Source: an uncultured virus (IMG/VR IMGVR_UViG_3300032030_000077) (taxonomy: Duplodnaviria > Heunggongvirae > Uroviricota > Caudoviricetes). From it: a DNA stretch of 64,000 nt. The notes beneath the pieces were generated by a model. It was not told the DNA's origin. It made no database searches and saw only the letters and a list, made by a program, of their open reading frames with translations. Shown one piece after another: positions 1 to 28,103 of this stretch. The translations under genes and the position numbers were made by a program. Within the stretch, counting starts at the first letter, position 1. Each line of letters opens with the position of its first letter. The stretch is from the IMG/VR virus record IMGVR_UViG_3300032030_000077, one strand, 5' to 3'.

Positions 1-4
1 ATAC

Positions 5-38
5 AGGGGGTGGGGGTGATTTTCGGAGACCCCCCCTA
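5..38. other. G-tract/C-tract element near the probable genome terminus (possible cos/packaging region)
   Basis: AGGGGGTGGGGGTG...ACCCCCCCT imperfect inverted repeat beyond the last gene; an HNH nuclease plus terminase suggests cos-type packaging (inference). Confidence 0.35.
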
Positions 39-169
39 TACCTTTGATATGGGTGCCAAAACGGATACTGGGCTCATAGAGCGGGTAACCATGCATTTTC
101 TCATTTAATTCTCTTTCTTTAATGCTATTTGTTGTATACAAGTTCAAACAGAAAACTAATAGATTTCTT

Positions 170-256
170 TTAATCATAGAGAATGCTAAGAAAACTAGTA
201 TTAATAATCTTCGCGATTATTCTCAAACTATTTAACTTAACATTCTCTATAATTAA
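170..256 (-). other. Long RNA hairpin in the 3' trailer of the RNAP operon
   Basis: 21-bp stem (236-256 with 170-190) with 2 G-U pairs on the minus strand; inner hairpin AAUAAUC-GCGAA-GAUUAUU. Confidence 0.6.
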
Positions 257-260
257 TTAC

Positions 261-388
261 ATAACACAAGAACACAAAACACCAAATGATACACACATTA
301 ATGGGGTGAGAGATCATTGTAGGTTTTGTCATAAAAGAGGGTAGAATGACCGATAGCAAACAGGTTGGTGCTAGTGCTCTTGTGTTAT
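261..388 (-). ncRNA. Putative multi-arm antisense RNA (3' trailer of the RNAP operon)
   Basis: 15-bp plus 8-bp closing stems with G-U pairs on the minus strand; two inner hairpins whose loops are complementary to the 5' UTR at 25410-25447. Confidence 0.6.
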
Positions 389-398
389 AGTAATCTAC

Positions 399-677
399 TT
401 AATAATCTTCGTCATCACCATAATCGATCTCTACTTCTTTTTGTACTTTTACATACATTTTTGTAGGATCACTGGCAATAAACGAATCAATGACACGTTC
501 AATATTTCTCGCTTCTACAGTTGGCGGCAAATTTTCCAAATCATCGTAAAGTCTTGCTAAAATTCCACAAGAATTGTAACCTTTTGAATTGTCAAAATTG
601 TACCAATTGTCAAAATCAGTAAAAGGATCATAAGGATTGTCAATTGTGGAGAGCATAGAATCAAGAACTTTTTCCAT
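399..677 (-). CDS. Small acidic hypothetical protein abutting the RNAP gene
   Basis: 92-aa ORF; AGGAGG RBS; starts immediately after the RNAP stop. Confidence 0.8.
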   Translation of the reverse strand: MEKVLDSMLSTIDNPYDPFTDFDNWYNFDNSKGYNSCGILARLYDDLENLPPTVEARNIERVIDSFIASDPTKMYVKVQKEVEIDYGDDEDY

Positions 678-3602
678 TTATGCCTCCTTTTTATTAAGTA
701 TGTTAGAAATCGTGCTTGTAGACACATTCATAACATCAGCAATTTGTGAAATTGTATAGACATTGTTGTTATACATAGCTAAAACTCTTGCTTTTTGAGC
801 CTCAGATAGACCGCTTCTAGAGGTAGGTTTAGGTGTTGCCCTTTCTCTAAGAACGTCAGGATCTGTAAACCTCAAGATGTCGGATAATACGGTATGCGAT
901 ACTGCCCTAGCCTGTATAGCCTCCCATTCCCTATCCGTGATCTCAAAGTTCCTATTCTTACGGTTAGAGCCTACTGCATCTCTAGCTCTATCTATGGCTC
1001 TTTGCCTATTCTTCTTATCTTCTTTCTTCCAAGGTTCTATAGACGGATCTAGCCTATACTGCCTCTGTATCTCTGCATTAGCTAATACCTGGGCATATGC
1101 TTCCCTTGGTGCCTGCTTAATAGCATTATTGAGCTTAGCTTTTAATGAAGCAACTTCTGCTTTATACATCTCTGCAGCAGCAGGATCTACTTTGTCTTTA
1201 ACAATGTATACCTGTTCTTTTCTTGCTTCATTGGCCATGTCTTTCATACGCTTAGCGTATTTAGCATATTCTTCTTCTACAGCAGTACCTGTGGATAGGC
1301 TATAGGGATCTCTGGTAGCAGCCATCTGAGTAGTCTTCTGTGTTACAGGTATCTGTACACTGTCATCATACTCATATCTTGTCTTACCATTCTCATCGAT
1401 ATACTTCTTGCCTTTCTTAGATCTTGTTTCACCACTAAGTTTGTATACCAAAGCTCCTTCAGGAAGAGTCTCATCATACCAAGGCTTTCCTTTTTGATTA
1501 ATTCTAGGATTACCCTGAGTTTTAGGTACTCTAGCTTCTCCTGTAGCTCTAGACAATAATGTTCCAGCACCACCAACTTTGACGTTTCCATCAGCATCTA
1601 CGTGTGTCTGGAATTCTTTCTTAAGAGACTTAATATCATTGTCTATTTCAGACTGTTTCCAATCGAGCTTATGCTTTTCAGCATCAATTACAGTCTGTGA
1701 ATGTCTTATTGCTCTTTCGAGCTTATCATTAGAAGCACCAGCAACAGTCATATCTGTAATAAGATTGGTTATCACACCCATCTGTTTCTGAGTTCCAGAA
1801 GAAGTCATAACAGTAATCGGAATGCCATTCTTATTTAAATATACTGTCTTGCCATTTCTCTCTACTGCTTTAGTGCCATAAGTCTCTTTAGCATCGAATC
1901 CAACAAGACCAGGAAAAGGCTTCTGATTCTGAATATCAATCTTACTTCCTTTGCCTGTAGGTATAACAAGAACATCATCACCATCAAAGTCAGCACCTGA
2001 AAGTCTATCGGCATTGAACTTATTAATGCCAACAGCATCTCTAGCCTGTTTAGTCATAACCTTAATGGCTTCAGGATTATTGTTGTTAACTGTAAGAATA
2101 GGTATTTCAGATGTAGATCCATGAGGGAATCTAATAAGAGCTACCTTTTCTCCATTCTTATAGTTCGGTGCATAAACTTCATCATCTTTCAAAGAAGGAA
2201 TAGGTAATATAACCTGATAAGCCTGTCTTGGAAATGCTGAAGCAGCAAGATTAACAGCATCTGAATCACACTTAGAAGCGAATTCTCTGAGATAATGTTC
2301 TCTTACAGCAGGATTGTTGATACGCATAATATCGTCAAACTCTGCTCTCTTCTCTTCATAAGTGTAATTAAGCTGTCTCTTAATGAGTTCAGGAGGCTGC
2401 TTTGATAGCATCTGTGAAGGAACAGTCTTAGAATATCCACCCCAATCTCCTTCAGGATGTACCATATTGATAGCACCTTGTCTTTCAACACCATTCTCAT
2501 CAGTATACTTTGGCTGTCCACCAGCCTGTATTACTGCACCAAAAGGATTATCAGGATCACTCTTGATAGGCTTAAGAACACCATTCTTGCCATCCATCAT
2601 CTTTGTGCCCTGATGCTTGTTAGTATTGAAACGAATATCAACACCATCAGGAAGATCATCAGAATATACAGCCATTCCTTTAAGATAATATCCATTATCA
2701 ACAAGGATTCTTACCTGTGCATAATGATTTCCACCAAGATTCAGATCCTTAGCGCCTCTTCTGATCTCAATAAGACCATCTTTATCTATTCCACCTTCTT
2801 CTGCATAACAAATAGAAACACGCTTTGAATCAACTGAAACAGGAGGCTTAGGTCTATTGAATGTTTCACCACCATCTTCAGAATGATACTCAATAACAGA
2901 ATTGATCTCTCCATTATCTCTAGCAATATACATAGCATGTGATACCTGCTTCTGAGAATATCCAGGAGGGAACTTACCAGCAAGTGTTCTGTTAGTCTGT
3001 TGTCCTTTGTTAGTAACCTGAGGAATACCTATTGTTGCTACAGAATATCCATCAAGTTTCATCATCTCCAAAGCCTGAGCCATGGTAGATTCAGAAACAT
3101 CTATAGCTTGTGGTACACCTTTACCAACATCGATTATTCCTTTCTCTTCAATCTGTCTCTCAAGAAAGTCTGCAGTGTTTCTTGCTTTGTTTGCATTTAC
3201 TTCAACAACATTATTCTTCCACCAATTACGAACAGTTCCTTCAGTAACGCCAAGAGCATTTGCAATCTCAACATTAGTCTTTCCTTCATCACGCATCTGC
3301 TTGGCAGTAGTTATTCTGGCTGACTGTCTCTGTCTACTAATAACTGACTTCCATCTGACTAACTCAGTTGTAGAGCATTCCATCTTATCAGCGATCTCTT
3401 TGTTAGAAAGACCCTGCTTCTTATACTCTTCAACTTCGTCAAGCCATTTACATGAATTTGCGTAAGCGTCATCATGCTGATATGGATTTTCTCCAGATCC
3501 CCAAGGAAATCTACCAGAACGACGCTTCACGCCATAGTGCTCTAAATATAAACCTTCTTCTAACTCGACGAAGGCTTTGAACTCTTCGTAAGAACTTGAC
3601 AT
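678..3602 (-). CDS. Putative single-subunit two-barrel DNA-dependent RNA polymerase (YonO/QDE-1-like) with HTH domains
   Basis: Catalytic GADFDGD (D538/540/542, nt 1977-1991), upstream RFPH, DGLIEI and QVR..LKGM motifs, downstream GVITN and VIDAEK; two N-terminal HTHs and one C-terminal HTH. Confidence 0.8.
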   Translation of the reverse strand: MSSSYEEFKAFVELEEGLYLEHYGVKRRSGRFPWGSGENPYQHDDAYANSCKWLDEVEEYKKQGLSNKEIADKMECSTTELVRWKSVISRQRQSARITTAKQMRDEGKTNVEIANALGVTEGTVRNWWKNNVVEVNANKARNTADFLERQIEEKGIIDVGKGVPQAIDVSESTMAQALEMMKLDGYSVATIGIPQVTNKGQQTNRTLAGKFPPGYSQKQVSHAMYIARDNGEINSVIEYHSEDGGETFNRPKPPVSVDSKRVSICYAEEGGIDKDGLIEIRRGAKDLNLGGNHYAQVRILVDNGYYLKGMAVYSDDLPDGVDIRFNTNKHQGTKMMDGKNGVLKPIKSDPDNPFGAVIQAGGQPKYTDENGVERQGAINMVHPEGDWGGYSKTVPSQMLSKQPPELIKRQLNYTYEEKRAEFDDIMRINNPAVREHYLREFASKCDSDAVNLAASAFPRQAYQVILPIPSLKDDEVYAPNYKNGEKVALIRFPHGSTSEIPILTVNNNNPEAIKVMTKQARDAVGINKFNADRLSGADFDGDDVLVIPTGKGSKIDIQNQKPFPGLVGFDAKETYGTKAVERNGKTVYLNKNGIPITVMTSSGTQKQMGVITNLITDMTVAGASNDKLERAIRHSQTVIDAEKHKLDWKQSEIDNDIKSLKKEFQTHVDADGNVKVGGAGTLLSRATGEARVPKTQGNPRINQKGKPWYDETLPEGALVYKLSGETRSKKGKKYIDENGKTRYEYDDSVQIPVTQKTTQMAATRDPYSLSTGTAVEEEYAKYAKRMKDMANEARKEQVYIVKDKVDPAAAEMYKAEVASLKAKLNNAIKQAPREAYAQVLANAEIQRQYRLDPSIEPWKKEDKKNRQRAIDRARDAVGSNRKNRNFEITDREWEAIQARAVSHTVLSDILRFTDPDVLRERATPKPTSRSGLSEAQKARVLAMYNNNVYTISQIADVMNVSTSTISNILNKKEA

Positions 3603-3603
3603 G

Positions 3604-4164
3604 TTAGTTCTCCTTTTCGTTTATTCCCCTCAAAAGCTTTGTTCCGGCAATGATCTTGTCCATGATTGGGACTATGTTTTCTACTGATGGTTCAAATATC
3701 AATATATCATCGTTCTGATAAATTCTTAGCTCCATTCCGATGTCACCAGGCTTCACGTGATACTCCAAACAAAAAAGAGCAGCGTATACTTCAAGCTGCT
3801 CCTTGTGTGCTGGTATTATTCCAGTCTTAAGATCGTGTATCCTTAAGAAACCTTTCTTCTCATCGAACTTAATTGCATCGGCTGTACCAAAACAATATTC
3901 GCTATAATATAAAATGACTTCAGGTGACATACCGAAGCCAATAGCGTCATTTACATAATTTGCAAGATTAGCAGTTCCTTTTAACTTCTGCCTTAACTTT
4001 ATACATTGCGCTGCGAACTCGTGTAACTCTGTTCCTCTTTCAGCAGCTTTGTAATTTCTATAGGCCTCAATAAGATGGTCATCACTGTAATTGATCCAGT
4101 GATACTTACTTGCTCCCATAAAAGCATGAAGCCCACTAAGAGTAGAATGATTGTTCCAGTTCAT
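3604..4164 (-). CDS. PD-(D/E)XK / Cas4-like exonuclease
   Basis: GTELH, GTADAI, IHDLKTG and QLEVY motifs. Confidence 0.75.
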   Translation of the reverse strand: MNWNNHSTLSGLHAFMGASKYHWINYSDDHLIEAYRNYKAAERGTELHEFAAQCIKLRQKLKGTANLANYVNDAIGFGMSPEVILYYSEYCFGTADAIKFDEKKGFLRIHDLKTGIIPAHKEQLEVYAALFCLEYHVKPGDIGMELRIYQNDDILIFEPSVENIVPIMDKIIAGTKLLRGINEKEN

Positions 4165-4870: not shown

Positions 4871-5209
4871 TCACCCCTCGGATTCCTCCAAATCCTCATT
4901 CTTTTTCTCAATTTTGAGGCTGTCATCGTACATCGCAGCCACGAAGCGAGGGTCCTTTCTTCCCTCGAAACCCTTACCTTTAGCAAGGAGATCAAGCTGC
5001 TCGTTCTGCTTACGGGTTGCCTTGCTTGAACTGACTACGCTTACCCCAATCATCAGCGCTAATGGCGCTACGATCGGAAGCATTGCTCCGCCAACTTCTG
5101 CAAGACCATCCTTAAACTTATCGAGCCTTTCCTGTCTCTTATGCTTTCGGTTGATCTTTTCGAGTTCTCTCTGTGCTCTCTCTTCTTCGGTCATCTGCTT
5201 CTTACTCAT
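4871..5209 (-). CDS. Hypothetical membrane-anchored protein
   Basis: ORF with GGAGG RBS and one hydrophobic segment; has its own promoter motif at 5255-5280. Confidence 0.75.
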   Translation of the reverse strand: MSKKQMTEEERAQRELEKINRKHKRQERLDKFKDGLAEVGGAMLPIVAPLALMIGVSVVSSSKATRKQNEQLDLLAKGKGFEGRKDPRFVAAMYDDSLKIEKKNEDLEESEG

Positions 5210-5254
5210 GTTCATTCCTCCTTATTTAGAAAACATGATTGTTTATAAGTTATC

Positions 5255-5284: not shown

Positions 5285-5323
5285 AAAAAGAAAAGAGCCT
5301 GATCAAATATCAATCAAGCTCTT
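5285..5323 (-). terminator. Intrinsic terminator
   Basis: AAGAGCUUGAU...AUCAGGCUCUU plus U-tract after the 5332-5514 gene. Confidence 0.7.
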
Positions 5324-5534: not shown

Positions 5535-5560
5535 CATTAAATAATATGTATTATTTACGA
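5535..5560 (-). promoter_or_regulatory. 26-nt phage promoter motif
   Basis: TCGTAAATAATACATATTATTTAATG. Confidence 0.75.
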
Positions 5561-22944: not shown

Positions 22945-23007
22945 TTTTTCTCCTTTCTAAATATAAAAGACTAAGAGAGCCTGATTTCTCAAGCCCTCTC
23001 GGTTTGG

Positions 23008-24515: not shown

Positions 24516-24642
24516 TTTTCTCCTCCTTACGGCATCCTGCTCTCCACAGAAGTGCTTCCTCCTTGTGCCCATCAGACTTTCCGACCTTATAAGACACATA
24601 AATAGCAACCATGATTGCAACTCCACTAAATACTCTTCCCAT
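24499..24642 (-). CDS. Small membrane peptide (47 aa, not in ORF track)
   Basis: MGRVFSGVAIMVAIYVSYKVG...; AGGAGG RBS. Confidence 0.6.
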   Translation of the reverse strand: MGRVFSGVAIMVAIYVSYKVGKSDGHKEEALLWRAGCRKEEKNGADN

Positions 24643-24907
24643 ACTTAAGTTCCTCCTTCTTAATTAAGTTCTTGCTTATTGTTACCTTTGCAGTAGGCTG
24701 ATAGCCCAATTCCTTCTTAACCTGCCAAACCATATTTGAGTATGCTTTAGCAAGACTAACTGCCTGTGTCTTTAACTTGACATGCGCTATGGTCTTATCA
24801 AAAATGAAAACCGGCCCGTGATAGCTGTACGTGTCTTTGTACTTACTATCAGGAACCGGCGTGAACGATAACTGACCGTTCTTCTCGCGATATAGATTTT
24901 CCTGCAT
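24626..24907 (-). CDS. Hypothetical protein
   Basis: 93-aa ORF with GAGGTG RBS. Confidence 0.7.
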   Translation of the reverse strand: MQENLYREKNGQLSFTPVPDSKYKDTYSYHGPVFIFDKTIAHVKLKTQAVSLAKAYSNMVWQVKKELGYQPTAKVTISKNLIKKEELKYGKSI

Positions 24908-24910
24908 ATC

Positions 24911-25414
24911 TCACCTCATATTAGAATATCCAGCAGCCTTAGAGTTCTTGAAGTTCGGTTTCTCAAGGCATATACATTCGTTACAAGTACCTGCATAATA
25001 CTTATGAACCCAGATCTCTTCATTGAGACCAAGTTCATTCACAGCCGTTTGCCATCTGGTCTTAAAGCCGTCAATGCTTTTTACTTTCTTACCGGATGAA
25101 AGATCGTCTTCCATCTTAAAATCGATACTCTTACCTTTTCCGAGATAAAAATCTTCTACTGCATCGATATACCACTTGAGATCATATCCTCTTCCTGTCA
25201 AAGAACCTCTATAACGACGCTTCTTAGGCTCTTCTGGAATAGATGGATGCATGGCAGCTACGTCAACCATAACTGCATCGACCTTGGTAGGTTCCTTATA
25301 CTTATCAAGAAGCCATACAAAAATATCAATTGCATTAGCTTCCTTTGCCGCACCTACGAGATTGTTGTAACTGCTCTCACCAAATGTCTCTACGAACTTC
25401 TCTTTGTTTGTCAT
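24911..25414 (-). CDS. Hypothetical protein, first gene of the operon under promoter 25482-25507
   Basis: 167-aa ORF; its 5' UTR is the apparent target of the 261-388 RNA. Confidence 0.75.
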   Translation of the reverse strand: MTNKEKFVETFGESSYNNLVGAAKEANAIDIFVWLLDKYKEPTKVDAVMVDVAAMHPSIPEEPKKRRYRGSLTGRGYDLKWYIDAVEDFYLGKGKSIDFKMEDDLSSGKKVKSIDGFKTRWQTAVNELGLNEEIWVHKYYAGTCNECICLEKPNFKNSKAAGYSNMR

Positions 25415-25447
25415 GTTTTACCCTCTTTTCTTAATGTGTGTGTTTGC

Positions 25448-25481
25448 AAAAAGAAATGAAGAGCAGAATTAATCTACTCTC
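25448..25481 (-). terminator. Promoter-proximal hairpin/attenuator
   Basis: GAGAGUAGA-UUAAU-UCUGCUCUU then AUUUCUUUUU, directly after the promoter motif. Confidence 0.5.
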
Positions 25482-25493
25482 CATTACATAACA

Positions 25494-25778
25494 TTATTTT
25501 TTTACGACTGCTTTTACTATGCTGTATATAGCAATAGGCCAAATCGCTCCACCAATAAAACTTACTCCGAATAAAAACATAGCTATTTTTGCATCGTTAT
25601 GTCCAAACATTTCTTCAATATCTTCACGTACGTCTTTTGCTGAATCGCCGTCGAATACAGGGTTAGGCATAATGTCTAATACACTGTTTCTATAAGCGCT
25701 CCAATAAAATGCGCAAACGTTAGTACAGAAATATAAAGCTCCAATAACAACGTATGCAAATACTAAATATTTAATCAT
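25494..25778 (-). CDS. Early membrane protein (2 TM)
   Basis: Two hydrophobic helices; own promoter motif. Confidence 0.75.
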   Translation of the reverse strand: MIKYLVFAYVVIGALYFCTNVCAFYWSAYRNSVLDIMPNPVFDGDSAKDVREDIEEMFGHNDAKIAMFLFGVSFIGGAIWPIAIYSIVKAVVKK

Positions 25779-25886
25779 TTATTGTCCTCTCTTTCTGTGC
25801 TGATTAATAGCCTTCATTAAAGAGTCAAAATTAATTGCGAAAAAGACAAGAGACCAACAACTTGTTAGTCTCTCATCTTACATACT

Positions 25887-26009
25887 TCATAGCTTTTTAA
25901 TGATGGCGATCAATCCGCCAATGCCCAGCAATATCGCTATTATTGGTATTAAATATATCGCCAAAAATAGAAATATAACCCCGGCCATTTGAGCTATTGC
26001 TTCCCACAT
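25887..26009 (-). CDS. Early hydrophobic peptide (40 aa, not in ORF track)
   Basis: MWEAIAQMAGVIFLFLAIYLIPIIAILLGIGGLIAIIKKL; AAAGGAGG RBS; promoter and terminator. Confidence 0.75.
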   Translation of the reverse strand: MWEAIAQMAGVIFLFLAIYLIPIIAILLGIGGLIAIIKKL

Positions 26010-26085
26010 TAAATCCTCCTTTCGTATCCATTAAAGAAATATAATTCTTTACGAAAAGATTTAAAGAGCAAGACCAATGTTCGAT

Positions 26086-26226
26086 TTAGTCTTCCTCGTC
26101 TTCTTTATGTGCTTTCCTGTTAAAACTCTCTCTATAGTTATCATCGTCATGAATCTCATCGAGCATCTGCTCAATTGTCTTTCCACGATAAAGTTCCATT
26201 TCAATTGTGTCGTAAGTATTTGCCAT
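26086..26226 (-). CDS. Early acidic peptide (46 aa, not in ORF track)
   Basis: MANTYDTIEMELYRGK...KEDEED; GGAGG RBS. Confidence 0.7.
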   Translation of the reverse strand: MANTYDTIEMELYRGKTIEQMLDEIHDDDNYRESFNRKAHKEDEED

Positions 26227-26333
26227 AATAGTTTCCTCCGTAAATATAAATTTAGTTACGGCCTTACTCTTTATCCTCTATTCCTCCTTCATTAAATAGT
26301 TAATAAAAATTACGAAAAAGAGAAGAGAGCCAA

Positions 26334-26483
26334 TTAAGACTCTCTCCACATACGTTTCATATCCTCGAGTTCTCTTTCACGTCTTTTACCCTCTTCCATA
26401 CCTTTGGATTCTCCAAACGCATATCCAAGACCAAAGATCACTATTGAAAATACTCCTAATACGATAGTATATGCTAATGTCAT
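26334..26483 (-). CDS. Early single-pass membrane peptide (49 aa, not in ORF track)
   Basis: MTLAYTIVLGVFSIVIFGLGYAFG...; GAGGAG RBS. Confidence 0.75.
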   Translation of the reverse strand: MTLAYTIVLGVFSIVIFGLGYAFGESKGMEEGKRRERELEDMKRMWRES

Positions 26484-26582
26484 ATTAATCTCCTCTCTTA
26501 TCAGAGCACTCATTGCTCTTCATAATATGAGTACATTTTTTTACGAAAAGAAAAACAGGGAGACTTAAAATATAATTTTGTC

Positions 26583-26897
26583 TCAAACTGCTTTACCTTC
26601 AAGTGCATCTATCTCTGTTTCAATCTGATCGAATATATCGACTACGTCGAATTCCCAGTCATTTAAAAACGTTTCACCTACTGGAATTCCAACAGTGAAG
26701 AATACCATGTGATTCTTAGTGTCATACAAGCATCCGGTGTGTCCACCGAAGTTGTAAAACTCGTTGTAATCACGAAGTCTCTTCCTGATTTCATCCATTA
26801 CATGAATGTTCGTCGACTTGACAATAAACGTTACGTCATAATACTCGGTTCCATTTCTATCGATTTTTGTTCTGATGTAATCACAAGTTCTTTCCAT
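26583..26897 (-). CDS. Early hypothetical protein
   Basis: 104-aa ORF; AAAGGA RBS; own promoter and terminator. Confidence 0.75.
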   Translation of the reverse strand: MERTCDYIRTKIDRNGTEYYDVTFIVKSTNIHVMDEIRKRLRDYNEFYNFGGHTGCLYDTKNHMVFFTVGIPVGETFLNDWEFDVVDIFDQIETEIDALEGKAV

Positions 26898-26966
26898 AAT
26901 TTGTCCTTTCCGTCTCCCTTCATAAAAGAAGAAAATATAATTACGAAAAGAAAAGAGGACTAAACG

Positions 26967-27074
26967 TCAGTCCTCATTTAAATGTCTGAATACATATTTG
27001 ATTGCTCCTACGACAATTGCTATCGTAGAAACAACGATCAATACAAATCCGACCATTCCAAATATAAGTGCCAT
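26967..27074 (-). CDS. Early hydrophobic peptide (35 aa, not in ORF track)
   Basis: MALIFGMVGFVLIVVSTIAIVVGAIKYVFRHLNED; AAAGGAGG RBS. Confidence 0.75.
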   Translation of the reverse strand: MALIFGMVGFVLIVVSTIAIVVGAIKYVFRHLNED

Positions 27075-27124
27075 AAAGCGCCTCCTTTCTTCTTCATTAA
27101 AGGATGCAAAAATTTTACGACAAA

Positions 27125-27214
27125 TAAAAAAGAGACTTAGGTTATCTGCTAACGCCCACGAGGGGCTCTTCTTCGAGTTTTCACTCTCAGTGCTTCAAAG
27201 ACTTCCATATCTCT
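27125..27214 (-). ncRNA. Putative structured small RNA C (~90 nt)
   Basis: Between a promoter motif and a U-tract, with no RBS; 5'/3' closing stem AGAGAU/GUCUCU enclosing three hairpins. Confidence 0.65.
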
Positions 27215-27243
27215 CATTAAAGGATGCAAAAATTTTACGACAT

Positions 27244-27371
27244 AAAAAAAGTACGAGAATGACGATCGTCGTTATTTTATCATGGGCCAATTGTCAGGAT
27301 TTCTCCTCAGCCACGATCCCGATTAGTTCCCACTTCTGGGTCTTCAAACTTCACATACCGTTCACTCTCTT
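27244..27371 (-). ncRNA. Putative structured small RNA B (~125 nt)
   Basis: Between a promoter motif and a U7 tract; closing stem GAGAGUGA(A)CGGU/AUCGUCAUUCUC; inner stems CCC/GGG, AUCGUGG/CCAUGAU and GGA-GAAA-UCC. Confidence 0.65.
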
Positions 27372-27397
27372 CATTAAAGGATGCATAAATTTTACGA

Positions 27398-27554
27398 AAA
27401 AGAAAAGGAGTAAGAATAACTTGCATACTATTTCGCGCATATACAAACCCGTCTCTCGAACTACTTGCCGTATAGGTCTCTTGGGTATTAATTCCAAGAT
27501 AGCGCGTGCAAGAAACCTAGACTTTTATCGTCTAAGTTTTACCTCTTACTCTCT
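27398..27554 (-). ncRNA. Putative structured small RNA A (~155 nt)
   Basis: Closing stem GAGUAAGAG/UUCUUACUC; stems AAACUUAGAC/GUCUAGGUUU, CUUGCA/UGCAAG, CGCGC/GCGCG and UCUUGG/CCAAGA; no RBS or ORF. Confidence 0.7.
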
Positions 27555-27598
27555 CATTAAATAACTCATAAATTTTACGATTAAAAAAGGAAGAGGGC

Positions 27599-27832
27599 TT
27601 ATTCAGCCCTATCCTCCTTTTGTTCCTTTGTTTCTTCTTCGTCTTTAAACAAGTTCCCGATTGTTTTCTCCATAACTTTCGGCATTGCTTCGTCTAAATA
27701 CCAGTCAAGGACGTTTCCAAACATTTCCTTGTATCCAACAAATATCTTGAATACAACGAATGCTATGGTAATAAGTCCCATGGCACAAAAAGTTGCAGCC
27801 AAAGCTATTAAAGCTAATAATAGTTCGCTCAT
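27599..27832 (-). CDS. Early single-pass membrane protein (first early cassette)
   Basis: GGAGG RBS before MSELLL; transmembrane helix. Confidence 0.75.
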   Translation of the reverse strand: MSELLLALIALAATFCAMGLITIAFVVFKIFVGYKEMFGNVLDWYLDEAMPKVMEKTIGNLFKDEEETKEQKEDRAE

Positions 27833-27896
27833 ATTTTTTACCTCCATAAAAACAAACAATAGTTACCATAATACTATTGAATATTTTTACGAAGTT

Positions 27897-28103
27897 AAAA
27901 AAGAAAAGGGGTAAATAATTTTGCTATCAAATATCAACTTGGTATAGGAGTGGTGTAGGAATGTAGGAGGTTTTAGTGTTCCTAACCACTCTTAACCAAG
28001 TCTAAGAAAGGCCCATTTTACGGGCACTCTGCGTAGTTATCATGTTTTTATGATATGGCAGAATCATTTTCCATAAATTAAGGGAGGAGTGATAACTACG
28101 CAG
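27897..28103 (-). ncRNA. Structured 3' trailer of the late operon with anti-RBS loops
   Basis: Perfect 14-bp inverted repeat 28029-28042/28090-28103, short GCCC(G)U/AUGGGC hairpin, and a ~22-bp hairpin at 27937-28001; loops contain CUCCUCCCU and ACCUCCU. Confidence 0.55.

What the first reader, a model, noticed from the sequence alone, without database searches (positions are those of the whole stretch)
261..388. Three-armed RNA at the genome end tiles the 5' UTR of gene 24911-25414
Seen: within one closed stem, separate segments are complementary to adjacent parts of a single leader. 333-343 pairs with 25419-25429 (11 nt, the SD AAAAGAGGGUA); 346-350 with 25410-25414 (AUGAC, the start codon); 291-301 with 25431-25441 (11 nt); and 356-362 with 25441-25447 (7 nt). 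Together they cover about 33 of 38 nt, with the segments in permuted order on different arms. A weaker UCUCACC match hits the next gene's RBS (~24909-24915). Inference: a multi-loop kissing antisense RNA, co-transcribed with the RNAP gene, feeds back on the first gene of the main early/middle operon.
Basis: partly seen in the sequence, partly recalled or inferred. Interest (0 to 1): 0.85.

Follow-up and report, generated by a model that had tools for sequence, protein, structure and literature searches.

The report
Folded phage RNA mirroring ribosome-binding sites
A tightly folded stretch at the very end of a gut phage genome displays loops that mirror ribosome-binding sites, best of all that of one phage gene, so it may act as a small RNA brake on protein synthesis, but nothing yet shows that it does.

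Summary
All four exact matches hold, the 28-bp closing stem holds, and window position 1 is a true (cos) genome end. The element (255-395) folds far better on the gene (minus) strand (z -6.7) than on the plus strand (z -3.0). It starts 4 nt after the last stop codon, so it is 3'UTR of the RNAP-like/gp92 operon.

The statistics are modest. Two adjacent 11-mers arise in 12 of 4000 shuffles. The two-loop pairing energy is matched by 3 of 115 loop-shuffled controls. The SD site alone is ordinary (55 of 140), and the genome holds 8 such inverted double matches.

An accessibility-corrected scan ranks the TIR of gene 24911-25414 first of 1345 sites. The second-ranked site lies in the same gene.

The firmer result is broader. 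In 6 of 16 related 3' regions tested, the sense strand shows accessible ACCYC (anti-SD-like) loops that prefer ribosome-binding sites; 1 of 70 random segments does.

The two relatives that hold both loci (G002, G003) show no leader complementarity, though their elements and leaders are not homologous to the window's.

Most likely this is a 3'UTR-borne SD-occluding RNA, comparable to icaR 3'UTR, staphylococcal C-rich sRNAs and P1 c4. Its function is unproven.

The parts
255..395 (-). The element: a structured RNA module that starts 4 nt after the stop codon of the last gene
   Evidence: MFE -41.4 kcal/mol, z -6.67, 0 of 200 shuffles as good. Plus strand z -2.95.
366..395 (-). 5' strand of the closing (clamp) stem
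   Evidence: Pairs with 255-284: 28 bp including 3 G-U.
255..284 (-). 3' strand of the closing stem. Contains UGUUAUGUAAU, which also occurs in the same sense at 25483-25493.
351..365 (-). Unpaired 5' interior segment (CCUGUUUGCUAUCG...). Complementary to 25044-25062 inside the target gene.
   Evidence: Unpaired probability about 0.5-0.9. Hybrid -24.2, total -14.2 kcal/mol, second-best site genome-wide.
328..350 (-). Hairpin 1: 5-bp stem GUCAU/AUGAC and 13-nt loop UCUACCCUCUUUU (333-345), anti-SD-like
   Evidence: 11 bp with the SD AAAAGAGGGUA plus 5 bp with AUGAC; hybrid -20.5.
285..318 (-). Hairpin 2: 6-bp stem and large loop CUCUCACCCCAUUAAUGUGUGU (291-312)
   Evidence: 11 bp with leader ACACACAUUAA (-13.6). 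10 of 11 bp with the SD of gene 24626-24907 (-13.6).
25405..25447 (-). Leader, SD (25419-25429) and start codon (25412-25414) of gene 24911-25414: the predicted main pairing site
25044..25062 (-). Second predicted pairing site, inside the coding sequence of the same gene
   Evidence: rank 2 of 1345 distinct sites.
24909..24919 (-). SD region of the next gene (24626-24907), complementary to the 5' half of loop 2
25455..25485 (-). Terminator-like hairpin plus U-run directly upstream of the leader. The leader's ACACACAUUAAG aligns with the TTTAATGAAG box of the repeated early units.
399..677 (-). Last gene (gp92, phrog_4303, function unknown). The element is its 3'UTR.
678..3602 (-). 974-aa RNA-polymerase-like gene (phrog_4291) with HTH/sigma-r4-like domains at both ends
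178..247 (-). Second long hairpin of the 3'UTR. Also present with a different sequence in L003. Shows no preference for TIRs.
1..45 (-). Family-wide right-end motif (G-run, A-rich spacer, C-run): the cos end. Joined to the T-rich left end it resembles a terminator.

Best explanation
The element is a functional RNA made on the gene strand. It forms part of the roughly 400-nt 3'UTR of the last operon (RNAP-like gene, then gp92) of a roughly 65.5-kb cos phage. A 28-bp clamp stem encloses about 80 nt. That interior exposes G-poor, C/U-rich loops of the type ACCYC, which resemble the anti-Shine-Dalgarno end of 16S rRNA.

The likely mechanism is that these loops base-pair with ribosome-binding regions of mRNAs and block initiation. 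The resulting duplexes, and the clamp itself, may also be RNase III substrates.

In this phage the best-fitting partner is the leader of gene 24911-25414:
- loop 1 covers its SD and, after the 5-bp stem melts, its AUG;
- loop 2 covers the 11 nt just upstream;
- the unpaired 5' segment fits a site inside the same gene;
- the other half of loop 2 fits the SD of the next gene.

Shown here: the sequence matches, the fold, the strand bias, the anti-SD trait in several lineages, and the target ranking. Inferred: that the RNA accumulates, binds and represses.
For: Structure and strand:
- Sense versus antisense z-scores are -6.67/-2.95 (window), -6.89/-3.23 (L003) and -5.92/-1.10 (L078).
- Clamp stems of 28, 25, 23 and 25 bp have unrelated sequences in the window, L003, L055 and L078.
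- Unpaired interiors are G-poor: 3 of 51, 1 of 33, 4 of 47 and 2 of 40 nt.

Anti-SD trait:
- 23 of the top 100 predicted sites are TIRs, against 103 of 1345 overall.
- The fraction of the 91 TIRs bound at -8 kcal/mol or better is 0.21 (window), 0.14 (L003), 0.22 (L055), 0.27 (L078), 0.20 (G003) and 0.33 (L109).
- Control windows give 0.01-0.02. The antisense strands of these six give 0.00-0.05.
- Only 1 of 70 random 150-nt sense segments reaches 0.14, and 0 of 70 reach 0.21.
- The rest of this 3'UTR gives 0.00-0.01.

Target:
- The leader is rank 1 of 1345 distinct sites (5727 windows scanned). Rank 2 lies in the same gene.
- Two-site score is -21.4 against -14.8 for the next TIR; 3 of 115 loop-shuffled controls are as good.
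- A double 11-mer arises in 12 of 4000 shuffles.

Context:
- No promoter-like or terminator-like site lies between gp92 and the element.
- An RNA-library contig covers 306-726 without a difference.
- Precedents for the mechanism: icaR 3'UTR (PMC3868564, abstract read) and staphylococcal C-rich sRNAs (PMC8334554, passages read).
Against: - Single-site pairing with the SD is not better than loop-shuffled controls (55 of 140).
- Naive duplex energy puts about ten windows ahead of the leader among 12,703.
- Double 11-mer inverted matches occur at 8 locus pairs in this window.
- 0 of 2 relatives with both loci (G002, G003) show more than A/T-rich matches of 9 nt or less to their leader, and none covers the SD. 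G002's element has no anti-SD trait (0.00).
- 10 of 16 related 3' regions lack the trait on the sense strand, and 2 of 16 (L092, L098) show it on the antisense strand.
- TIRs of the window phage were used as stand-ins for all relatives.
- L003's element fits the window-type leader poorly (rank 628 of 5484).
- Part of the second 11-mer is a palindromic ATTAAT core shared with a repeated promoter-like box.
- A third shared 11-mer lies in direct orientation. This suggests shared ancestry rather than antisense design.
- The run data are contigs only. They give no strand, ends or abundance.
Confidence: 0.4

Rival explanations
1. A 3'-end protective or processing structure. The long clamp hairpins of the 3'UTR stabilise the RNAP-like/gp92 mRNA against exonucleases, or serve as RNase III processing sites. 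The complementarity to the leader is incidental.
For: - The clamp is 28 bp, and a second long hairpin at 178-247 follows it. The whole 1-400 region is highly structured (z -5.91).
- Other lineages have long clamp hairpins at the same place without anti-SD loops (L092, L095, L098, L104, G002).
- The single-site SD match is not significant.
Against: - It does not explain why loops are G-poor and ACCYC-rich in 6 of 16 lineages when only 1 of 70 random segments is.
- It does not explain the two-site fit (3 of 115).
- 28 of 41 relatives whose contig ends at the terminal motif have 130 nt or less after the last gene, so a long structured 3'UTR is dispensable.
Confidence: 0.25
2. Shared DNA ancestry or shared DNA motifs. 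The element carries an inverted, rearranged copy of the leader region: a degenerate promoter-like box with a palindromic ATTAAT core, an SD-like run, and ATGAC. Alternatively both loci bind the same DNA-binding protein. No RNA-RNA regulation is involved.
For: - The matches are colinear with the leader when read on the plus strand: ACACACATTAA, 31 nt, AAAAGAGGGTA, GA, ATGAC.
- The leader's ACACACATTAAG aligns with the TTTAATGAAG box of 11 repeated units.
- A third 11-mer, TGTTATGTAAT, is shared in direct orientation with 25483-25493.
- The reverse complement of L003's element reads GCAAACACATTAA, which is the window leader minus ACAC (read directly).
- G003's element also carries CCTTTAATG.
Against: - Both 11-mers fall in predicted loops and the inserted 31 nt forms the stems between them. 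That arrangement is what selection for pairing would give.
- The fold is much better on the sense strand.
- An inverted copy transcribed with the genes is an antisense RNA anyway, so ancestry and function do not exclude each other.
Confidence: 0.2
3. A DNA-level function at the genome end, such as a packaging accessory site, replication element or end protection.
For: It lies 255-395 bp from a conserved cos-type end. Inverted repeats are common at such sites (recalled, not tested).
Against: - Most relatives lack any such insert between the last gene and the terminal motif (28 of 41 have 130 nt or less).
- G-U pairs and the sense-strand bias point to RNA.
Confidence: 0.07
4. A tiny plus-strand gene: AAGAGGG, 4 nt, ATG, then 14 codons (346-390).
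For: An SD-like run and an ATG stand at a plausible distance on the plus strand.
Against: - Every other gene is on the minus strand.
- The reverse complement of L003's element offers only 2- to 7-codon frames with no similar peptide (read).
- The plus strand folds worse.
Confidence: 0.02

Closest known systems
icaR mRNA 3'UTR of Staphylococcus aureus (PMC3868564; abstract read)
   Same: A C-rich anti-SD motif (UCCCCUG) in a long 3'UTR pairs with an SD region, blocks the initiation complex and creates an RNase III substrate.
   Different: - There, 3'UTR and SD belong to one monocistronic mRNA.
- Here the best SD lies 25 kb upstream, beyond at least five terminator-like hairpins.
- The operon's own gp92 TIR fits only weakly (-5.1 kcal/mol).
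- Here there are two or three loops inside a clamp stem, in a phage.
C-rich SD-targeting sRNAs of Firmicutes, RNAIII and Rsa RNAs (PMC8334554, passages read; Geissmann 2009 known only as cited there)
   Same: Unpaired C-rich motifs in hairpin loops are complementary to the SDs of several mRNAs. Several loops can act on one target.
   Different: Those are chromosomal genes with their own promoter and terminator. This one is phage-borne, embedded in a 3'UTR and closed by a 28-bp clamp. There is no sequence or Rfam relation.
c4 antisense RNA of phages P1/P7 (PMC8201110, passages read; the two-loop a'/b' detail is recalled from Citron and Schuster 1990, not read)
   Same: A phage RNA acting in trans, whose two loop sequences pair with two neighbouring sites covering a ribosome-binding site.
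   Different: - c4 lies upstream of its target in the same operon and controls the antirepressor.
- Here the RNA lies at the far end of the genome.
- Neither Rfam search returned a C4 match: gathering threshold on the whole window and E up to 10 on 1-700.
UTR-derived ncRNA candidates of virulent Pseudomonas phages (PMC10914365, passages read)
   Same: Phage non-coding RNAs generated from 5' or 3' UTRs of phage mRNAs.
   Different: Those were found by transcript mapping and have no assigned targets. This one is inferred from sequence, with a predicted target class but no transcript map.
RNase III hairpins at phage mRNA 3' ends, lambda sib and T7 R sites (recalled, no call)
   Same: Long imperfect hairpins at the ends of phage messages that set mRNA stability.
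   Different: Those are not known to display anti-SD loops or to pair with other messages.

Membership tests
SD-targeting C-rich base-pairing RNA (staphylococcal Rsa/RNAIII type) | C-rich motif held unpaired in a loop | tested here: met
   Loops UCUACCCUCUUUU and CUCUCACCCC... have unpaired probability about 0.9. The unpaired interior has 16 C and 3 G of 51 nt.
SD-targeting C-rich base-pairing RNA (staphylococcal Rsa/RNAIII type) | Complementarity to SD regions above background | tested here: met
   23 of the top 100 sites are TIRs, against 103 of 1345 overall. 0.21 of 91 TIRs are bound at -8 kcal/mol or better, against 0.02 of controls. 0 of 70 random segments reach 0.21.
SD-targeting C-rich base-pairing RNA (staphylococcal Rsa/RNAIII type) | Exists as an RNA on that strand | tested here: inconclusive
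   A contig from an RNA library covers 306-726 and another covers 1-169. Contigs give no strand or ends, and DNA carry-over is possible.
SD-targeting C-rich base-pairing RNA (staphylococcal Rsa/RNAIII type) | Represses translation or triggers cleavage of the target | not testable with these tools
   Needs toeprinting, a reporter or RNase III assays.
icaR-type 3'UTR/5'UTR pairing within one mRNA | Anti-SD motif and SD lie on the same transcript | tested here: inconclusive
   The nearest upstream TIR (gp92) pairs weakly (-5.1). Terminator-like hairpins at 23000, 12229, 5592, 5323 and 4846 lie between the leader and the element. Read-through cannot be judged.
c4 antisense RNA (Rfam C4) | Match to the family's covariance model | tested here: not met
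   No Rfam match at gathering score in the window. No C4 match at E up to 10 in 1-700.
c4 antisense RNA (Rfam C4) | Two loops complementary to two adjacent sites over an RBS | tested here: met
   Two perfect 11-bp duplexes 1 nt apart on the leader. Two-site score -21.4.
Intrinsic terminator | GC-rich hairpin followed by a U-run | tested here: not met
   0 terminator-like sites in 1-800. The element is followed by AAUUAAUUAUAG.
cos / genome-end signal | Conserved across the phage family at the end | tested here: not met
   The G-run/C-run motif (1-45) is conserved: 41 of 80 loci end with it. The element is not: 28 of those 41 have 130 nt or less between the last stop and the end.
RNase III substrate / 3' stabiliser hairpin | About 20 bp or more of near-continuous dsRNA | tested here: met
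   28-bp clamp with two small interruptions. Cleavage itself is not testable here.
Small plus-strand protein gene | Frame and peptide conserved in relatives | tested here: not met
   The reverse complement of L003's element offers only 2- to 7-codon frames, unrelated in sequence (read).

The most novel reading that the evidence does not exclude
The element belongs to a so far uncatalogued class of phage RNAs that act as multivalent mimics of the 16S rRNA 3' end. One clamp-stabilised 3'UTR module carries two or three anti-SD loops. It accumulates as the last operon is transcribed and titrates the ribosome-binding sites of a chosen set of earlier phage messages, and possibly host messages. The replication-module leader would be the highest-affinity site, bound at two loops. 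This would be an RNA-only counterpart of enzymatic early-mRNA shut-off such as T4 RegB (recalled). Unchecked notes of this scan describe similar anti-SD hairpins in unrelated phages, so the device may be widespread.
Probability: 0.12. Interest if true: 0.75.

Novelty: new member of a known kind. Interest (0 to 1): 0.5.

Why it matters
If the RNA works as proposed, a lytic gut phage would time its own protein synthesis with a 3'UTR-borne RNA that copies the ribosome's mRNA-docking sequence. That mechanism has been demonstrated only for a few bacterial RNAs (icaR 3'UTR, staphylococcal C-rich sRNAs) and, in another form, for P1 c4.

The trait recurs in several lineages of a large family of uncultured phages; more than 480 gp92 relatives were found in metagenomes. 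It is easy to test with a leader-reporter fusion. It would add a regulatory layer to phages that carry their own unusual RNA polymerase.

If it is only a stabilising hairpin, the finding is ordinary.

Tried and rejected
**Known RNA families.** Rfam gave nothing at gathering score and only chance-level hits at E up to 10. There are no tRNA or tmRNA genes.

**More relatives.**
- GenBank phages: no DNA match to 1-3000 or 1-420.
- Pattern scans of viral contigs for leader variants and for a shared element motif returned only the window-like contigs plus chance hits.
- Two scans of genome contigs found no relative.
- The 167-aa gene occurs in only four viral contigs.

As a result, co-variation of loop and leader could not be tested in close relatives.

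**Covariation by alignment.** An alignment of the four related elements was too diverged (57% mean identity, 17 invariant columns).

**Naive duplex energies.** Without accessibility they do not single out the leader.

**Pairing in cis.** Pairing with each phage's own gp92 TIR is weak (-1.8 to -8.2 kcal/mol in 6 lineages).

**Run data.** Contigs of the RNA library do not cover 170-305, and one stops at 306. No conclusion is drawn.

**The three ORF-less early units.** They are not notably structured (z -1.5 to -1.75).

**Function of the 167-aa target.**
- No Pfam or PHROG family.
- No PDB relative (best E 0.75).
- Nothing in the ESM Atlas.
- The AlphaFold model from 4 sequences is too poor to search with (mean pLDDT 58.6).

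**Earlier findings.** Look-ups by place and by sequence gave nothing for this genome.

Full report
**Context.** The window is almost a whole phage genome.
- All credible genes lie on the minus strand, and GC is 39.4%.
- PHROG and Pfam name a terminase large subunit, a 2675-aa tape-measure-like protein and a 1355-aa primase-polymerase.
- At 678-3602 lies a 974-aa protein of phrog_4291, labelled 'RNA-dependent RNA polymerase', with HTH/sigma-region-4-like domains at both ends.
- Its relatives are all under 60% identical (250 records). They include Arthrobacter phages, where the gene sits next to the right genome end, and Faecalibacterium phage FP_oengus ('putative RNA polymerase').
- Window position 1 is a true end. 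Contigs L001, L003, G003 and L025 all stop just after the same G-run/C-run motif.
- The nearest record, G001, covers window 4494-64000 plus 1545 nt beyond 64000. The complete relative G003 (65,273 nt) is syntenic throughout.
- Of 80 metagenome loci with a homologue of the last gene (gp92, 399-677), 41 end with this motif.

The finding therefore lies in the 3' untranslated tail of the last operon, 255-395 nt from a cos-type end.

**The observation.**
- All four stated matches are exact.
- On the minus strand the element folds into a 28-bp clamp (366-395 with 255-284). The clamp encloses a 15-nt single strand, hairpin 1 (328-350, loop UCUACCCUCUUUU) and hairpin 2 (285-318, loop CUCUCACCCCAUUAAUGUGUGU).
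- The MFE is -41.4 kcal/mol, z -6.67. The plus strand reaches only z -2.95.
From the RNA's 5' end, GUCAU pairs with AUGAC, loop 1 with the SD, and loop 2 with the 11 nt upstream of the SD.
- The fourth segment (GCAAACA) is out of order. The same RNA stretch fits positions +4 to +9 of the coding sequence instead (read).
- Hybrid energies are -20.5 (loop 1 plus stem with SD/AUG) and -13.6 kcal/mol (loop 2 with the leader). The other half of loop 2 pairs 10 of 11 with the SD of the next gene (-13.6).

**Is it more than chance?** Partly.
- Both 11-mers are unique to the two loci.
- A pair of 11-mers within 45 nt arose in 12 of 4000 (opposite strand) and 7 of 4000 (same strand) shuffles of the element.
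- However, the real window holds 8 inverted locus pairs with double 11-mers within 141 nt. One of them is another pair on this very leader.
- Naive duplex energies put about ten of 12,703 windows ahead of the leader.
- I ran an accessibility-corrected scan: hybrid energy plus opening energies of both RNAs, my own approximation of IntaRNA. There the leader is first (-14.5 kcal/mol) of 1345 distinct sites (5727 windows scanned). The runner-up (-14.2) is 25044-25062, inside the same gene. Margins to the next sites are small (-13.8, -13.8, -13.7).
- I kept the stems and permuted the 51 unpaired interior bases. Then 55 of 140 controls found some TIR as good as -14.5, so the SD match by itself is ordinary.
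- A colinear two-loop score as good as the observed -21.4 (next TIR -14.8) was reached by 3 of 115 controls.

**Relatives.**
- The long 3' tail is not a family feature. Of the 41 loci that end at the terminal motif, 28 have 130 nt or less after the stop, 9 have 131-260 nt and 4 have more than 260 nt.
- L003 (RNAP 81% identical), L055 and L078 have elements of the same build. Their clamps are 25, 23 and 25 bp of unrelated sequence, their interiors 70-91 nt, and their unpaired bases almost G-free.
- Sense versus antisense z-scores are -6.89/-3.23 (L003), -5.92/-1.10 (L078) and -3.69/-3.53 (L055, no bias).
- These contigs are only 1.8-4.6 kb, so their leaders are unknown.
- L004 has a leader identical to the window's (120 of 120 nt over 25380-25500), while its gene body is 75-90% identical. 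That contig lacks the genome end.
- Only G002 and G003 hold both loci. Their leaders and elements differ from the window's. Neither shows more than A/T-rich matches of 9 nt or less, and none covers the SD.
- L003's element, scanned against the window's transcriptome, ranks the leader 628th of 5484. Its best hits are a 15-bp perfect match at 5042-5058 and several AGAAAGGGG-type SDs.
It remains open for close relatives.

**The broader trait.** The loops are anti-SD-like, with the core ACCYC. Compare the 16S 3' end CACCUCCU, which is recalled.
- For the window's element, 23 of the top 100 predicted sites are TIRs, against 103 of 1345 overall.
- I scored elements against the 91 TIRs of the window phage. 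The fraction bound at -8 kcal/mol or better is 0.21 (window), 0.14 (L003), 0.22 (L055), 0.27 (L078), 0.20 (G003) and 0.00 (G002). Controls give 0.00-0.02.
- The antisense strands give 0.00-0.02, except L055 (0.05).
- Ten further relatives with long tails give 0.33 (L109) and 0.00-0.09 for the other nine on the sense strand. On the antisense strand two reach 0.14 or more (L092 0.18, L098 0.14).
- So 6 of 16 elements show the trait on the sense strand.
- Of 70 random 150-nt sense segments, the mean is 0.021, 1 reaches 0.14 and none reaches 0.21. The remainder of this 3'UTR scores 0.00-0.01.
- Caveat: the window's TIRs served as stand-ins for every relative.

**The target's setting.**
- On the sense strand, 25.4-27.9 kb carries a series of units. 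Each is a hairpin plus T-run followed by TTTTCGTAAAA, 13 nt, then TTTAATGAAG, with small ORFs or none. Three more units lie near 5560, near 5285 and at the left genome end.
- Gene 24911-25414 is the first gene after this block. It is preceded by a terminator-like hairpin (25455-25485) and a shortened copy of the box (TTTTTGCAAACACACACATTAAG).
- Its SD is among the weaker ones (-6.3 kcal/mol against the anti-SD consensus; most genes score -8 to -16).
- The core ATTAAT is palindromic. A third 11-mer (TGTTATGTAAT) is shared in direct orientation between the clamp's 3' strand and 25483-25493. The reverse complement of L003's element reads GCAAACACATTAA. Shared ancestry of the two non-coding regions is therefore a serious alternative, though it does not exclude pairing.
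- Terminator-like hairpins at about 23000, 12229, 5592, 5323 and 4846 divide the 25 kb between leader and element. Pairing within a single transcript is therefore unlikely, and action in trans is the more plausible mode.

**Expression.** A sheep-gut metatranscriptome run (X1) holds 55% of the sampled words of window 1-4000.
- One of its contigs covers 306-726 without a difference, bridging the gp92 stop.
- Another contig covers 1-169 and runs 125 nt past position 1.
- These are contigs. They show presence in an RNA library, not strand, ends or level.

**Mechanism and rivals.**
- Most likely (0.4): a clamp-stabilised 3'UTR RNA whose anti-SD loops occlude ribosome-binding sites, with the 24911-25414 leader as the best-fitting site, bound at two loops.
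- Rivals: a purely protective or RNase III hairpin (0.25); shared DNA ancestry or motifs without RNA function (0.2); a DNA-level end function (0.07); a tiny plus-strand gene (0.02).

**Comparison and novelty.**
- The element works like the icaR 3'UTR (PMC3868564, abstract), staphylococcal C-rich sRNAs (PMC8334554, passages) and, in its two-loop geometry, P1 c4 (PMC8201110, passages; details recalled).
- It is a member of none of these by sequence.
- One literature search for a phage-encoded anti-SD RNA (listing only) showed none.
- Unchecked notes of this scan describe similar hairpins in other phages.
- I file it as a new member of a known kind. It is interesting mainly for the recurring anti-SD trait. 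The specific feedback claim is unproven.

Noticed in passing
window 25440-27915, about 5560 and about 5285 (minus strand); left ends of G001 (L015) and G003: At least 12 copies of a composite unit: a hairpin plus T-run, then TTTTCGTAAAA, about 13 nt, then TTTAATGAAG. It precedes small early ORFs, the RNAP operon and the first gene at the left genome end. It looks like a terminator followed by a non-sigma-70-type promoter, possibly read by the phage's own polymerase.
   Followed up: partly
window 27125-27590 (minus strand): Three tandem units of about 120-160 nt between such boxes contain no credible ORF and may be early non-coding RNAs. They are not notably structured (z -1.5 to -1.75). L004 has fewer of them.
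   Followed up: partly
window 1-45; ends of L001, L003, G003, L025 and 41 of 80 metagenome loci: A right-end motif is conserved across hundreds of uncultured phages: ATAGGGGGGGTC, an A-rich spacer, CCCCCNCCC, then CAT. In contigs that run on (L065, L068, L088) it is followed by CGCCCGCCTCC and then the left-end sequence TTCTCCGG. This suggests a cos site with a short overhang.
   Followed up: partly
window about 23000-22973, 12229-12200 and 5323-5293 (minus strand): Internal terminator-like hairpins share the arms (A/G)AGAGGGCUUGA and UCAGGCUCUCUU. Their purine arms resemble the SD-like sequences that the element's loops match, so an effect on termination is conceivable.
   Followed up: no
L003:4258-4274 versus window 5042-5058: Loop 1 of L003's element has a perfect 15-bp complement inside the coding sequence of the window's gene 4871-5215. 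This is the best hit of that element in the window's transcriptome.
   Followed up: no
window 678-3602: The RNA-polymerase-like protein carries HTH/sigma-region-4-like domains at both termini (about residues 54-143 and 928-971). This hints at promoter recognition without a separate sigma factor.
   Followed up: no
window 1 (run X1, record 1): A 294-nt contig of an RNA library covers 1-169 and continues 125 nt beyond the window's first base. The joined (circular or concatemeric) end is therefore present in that library.
   Followed up: no
window 24911-25414: The 167-aa putative target has no family, no PDB relative and a poor model (pLDDT 58.6). It is found in only four viral contigs. Its termini are conserved, including a C-terminal KYYxGTCNECIxLEKPNFKNSKAAG, around a variable middle.
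   Followed up: partly
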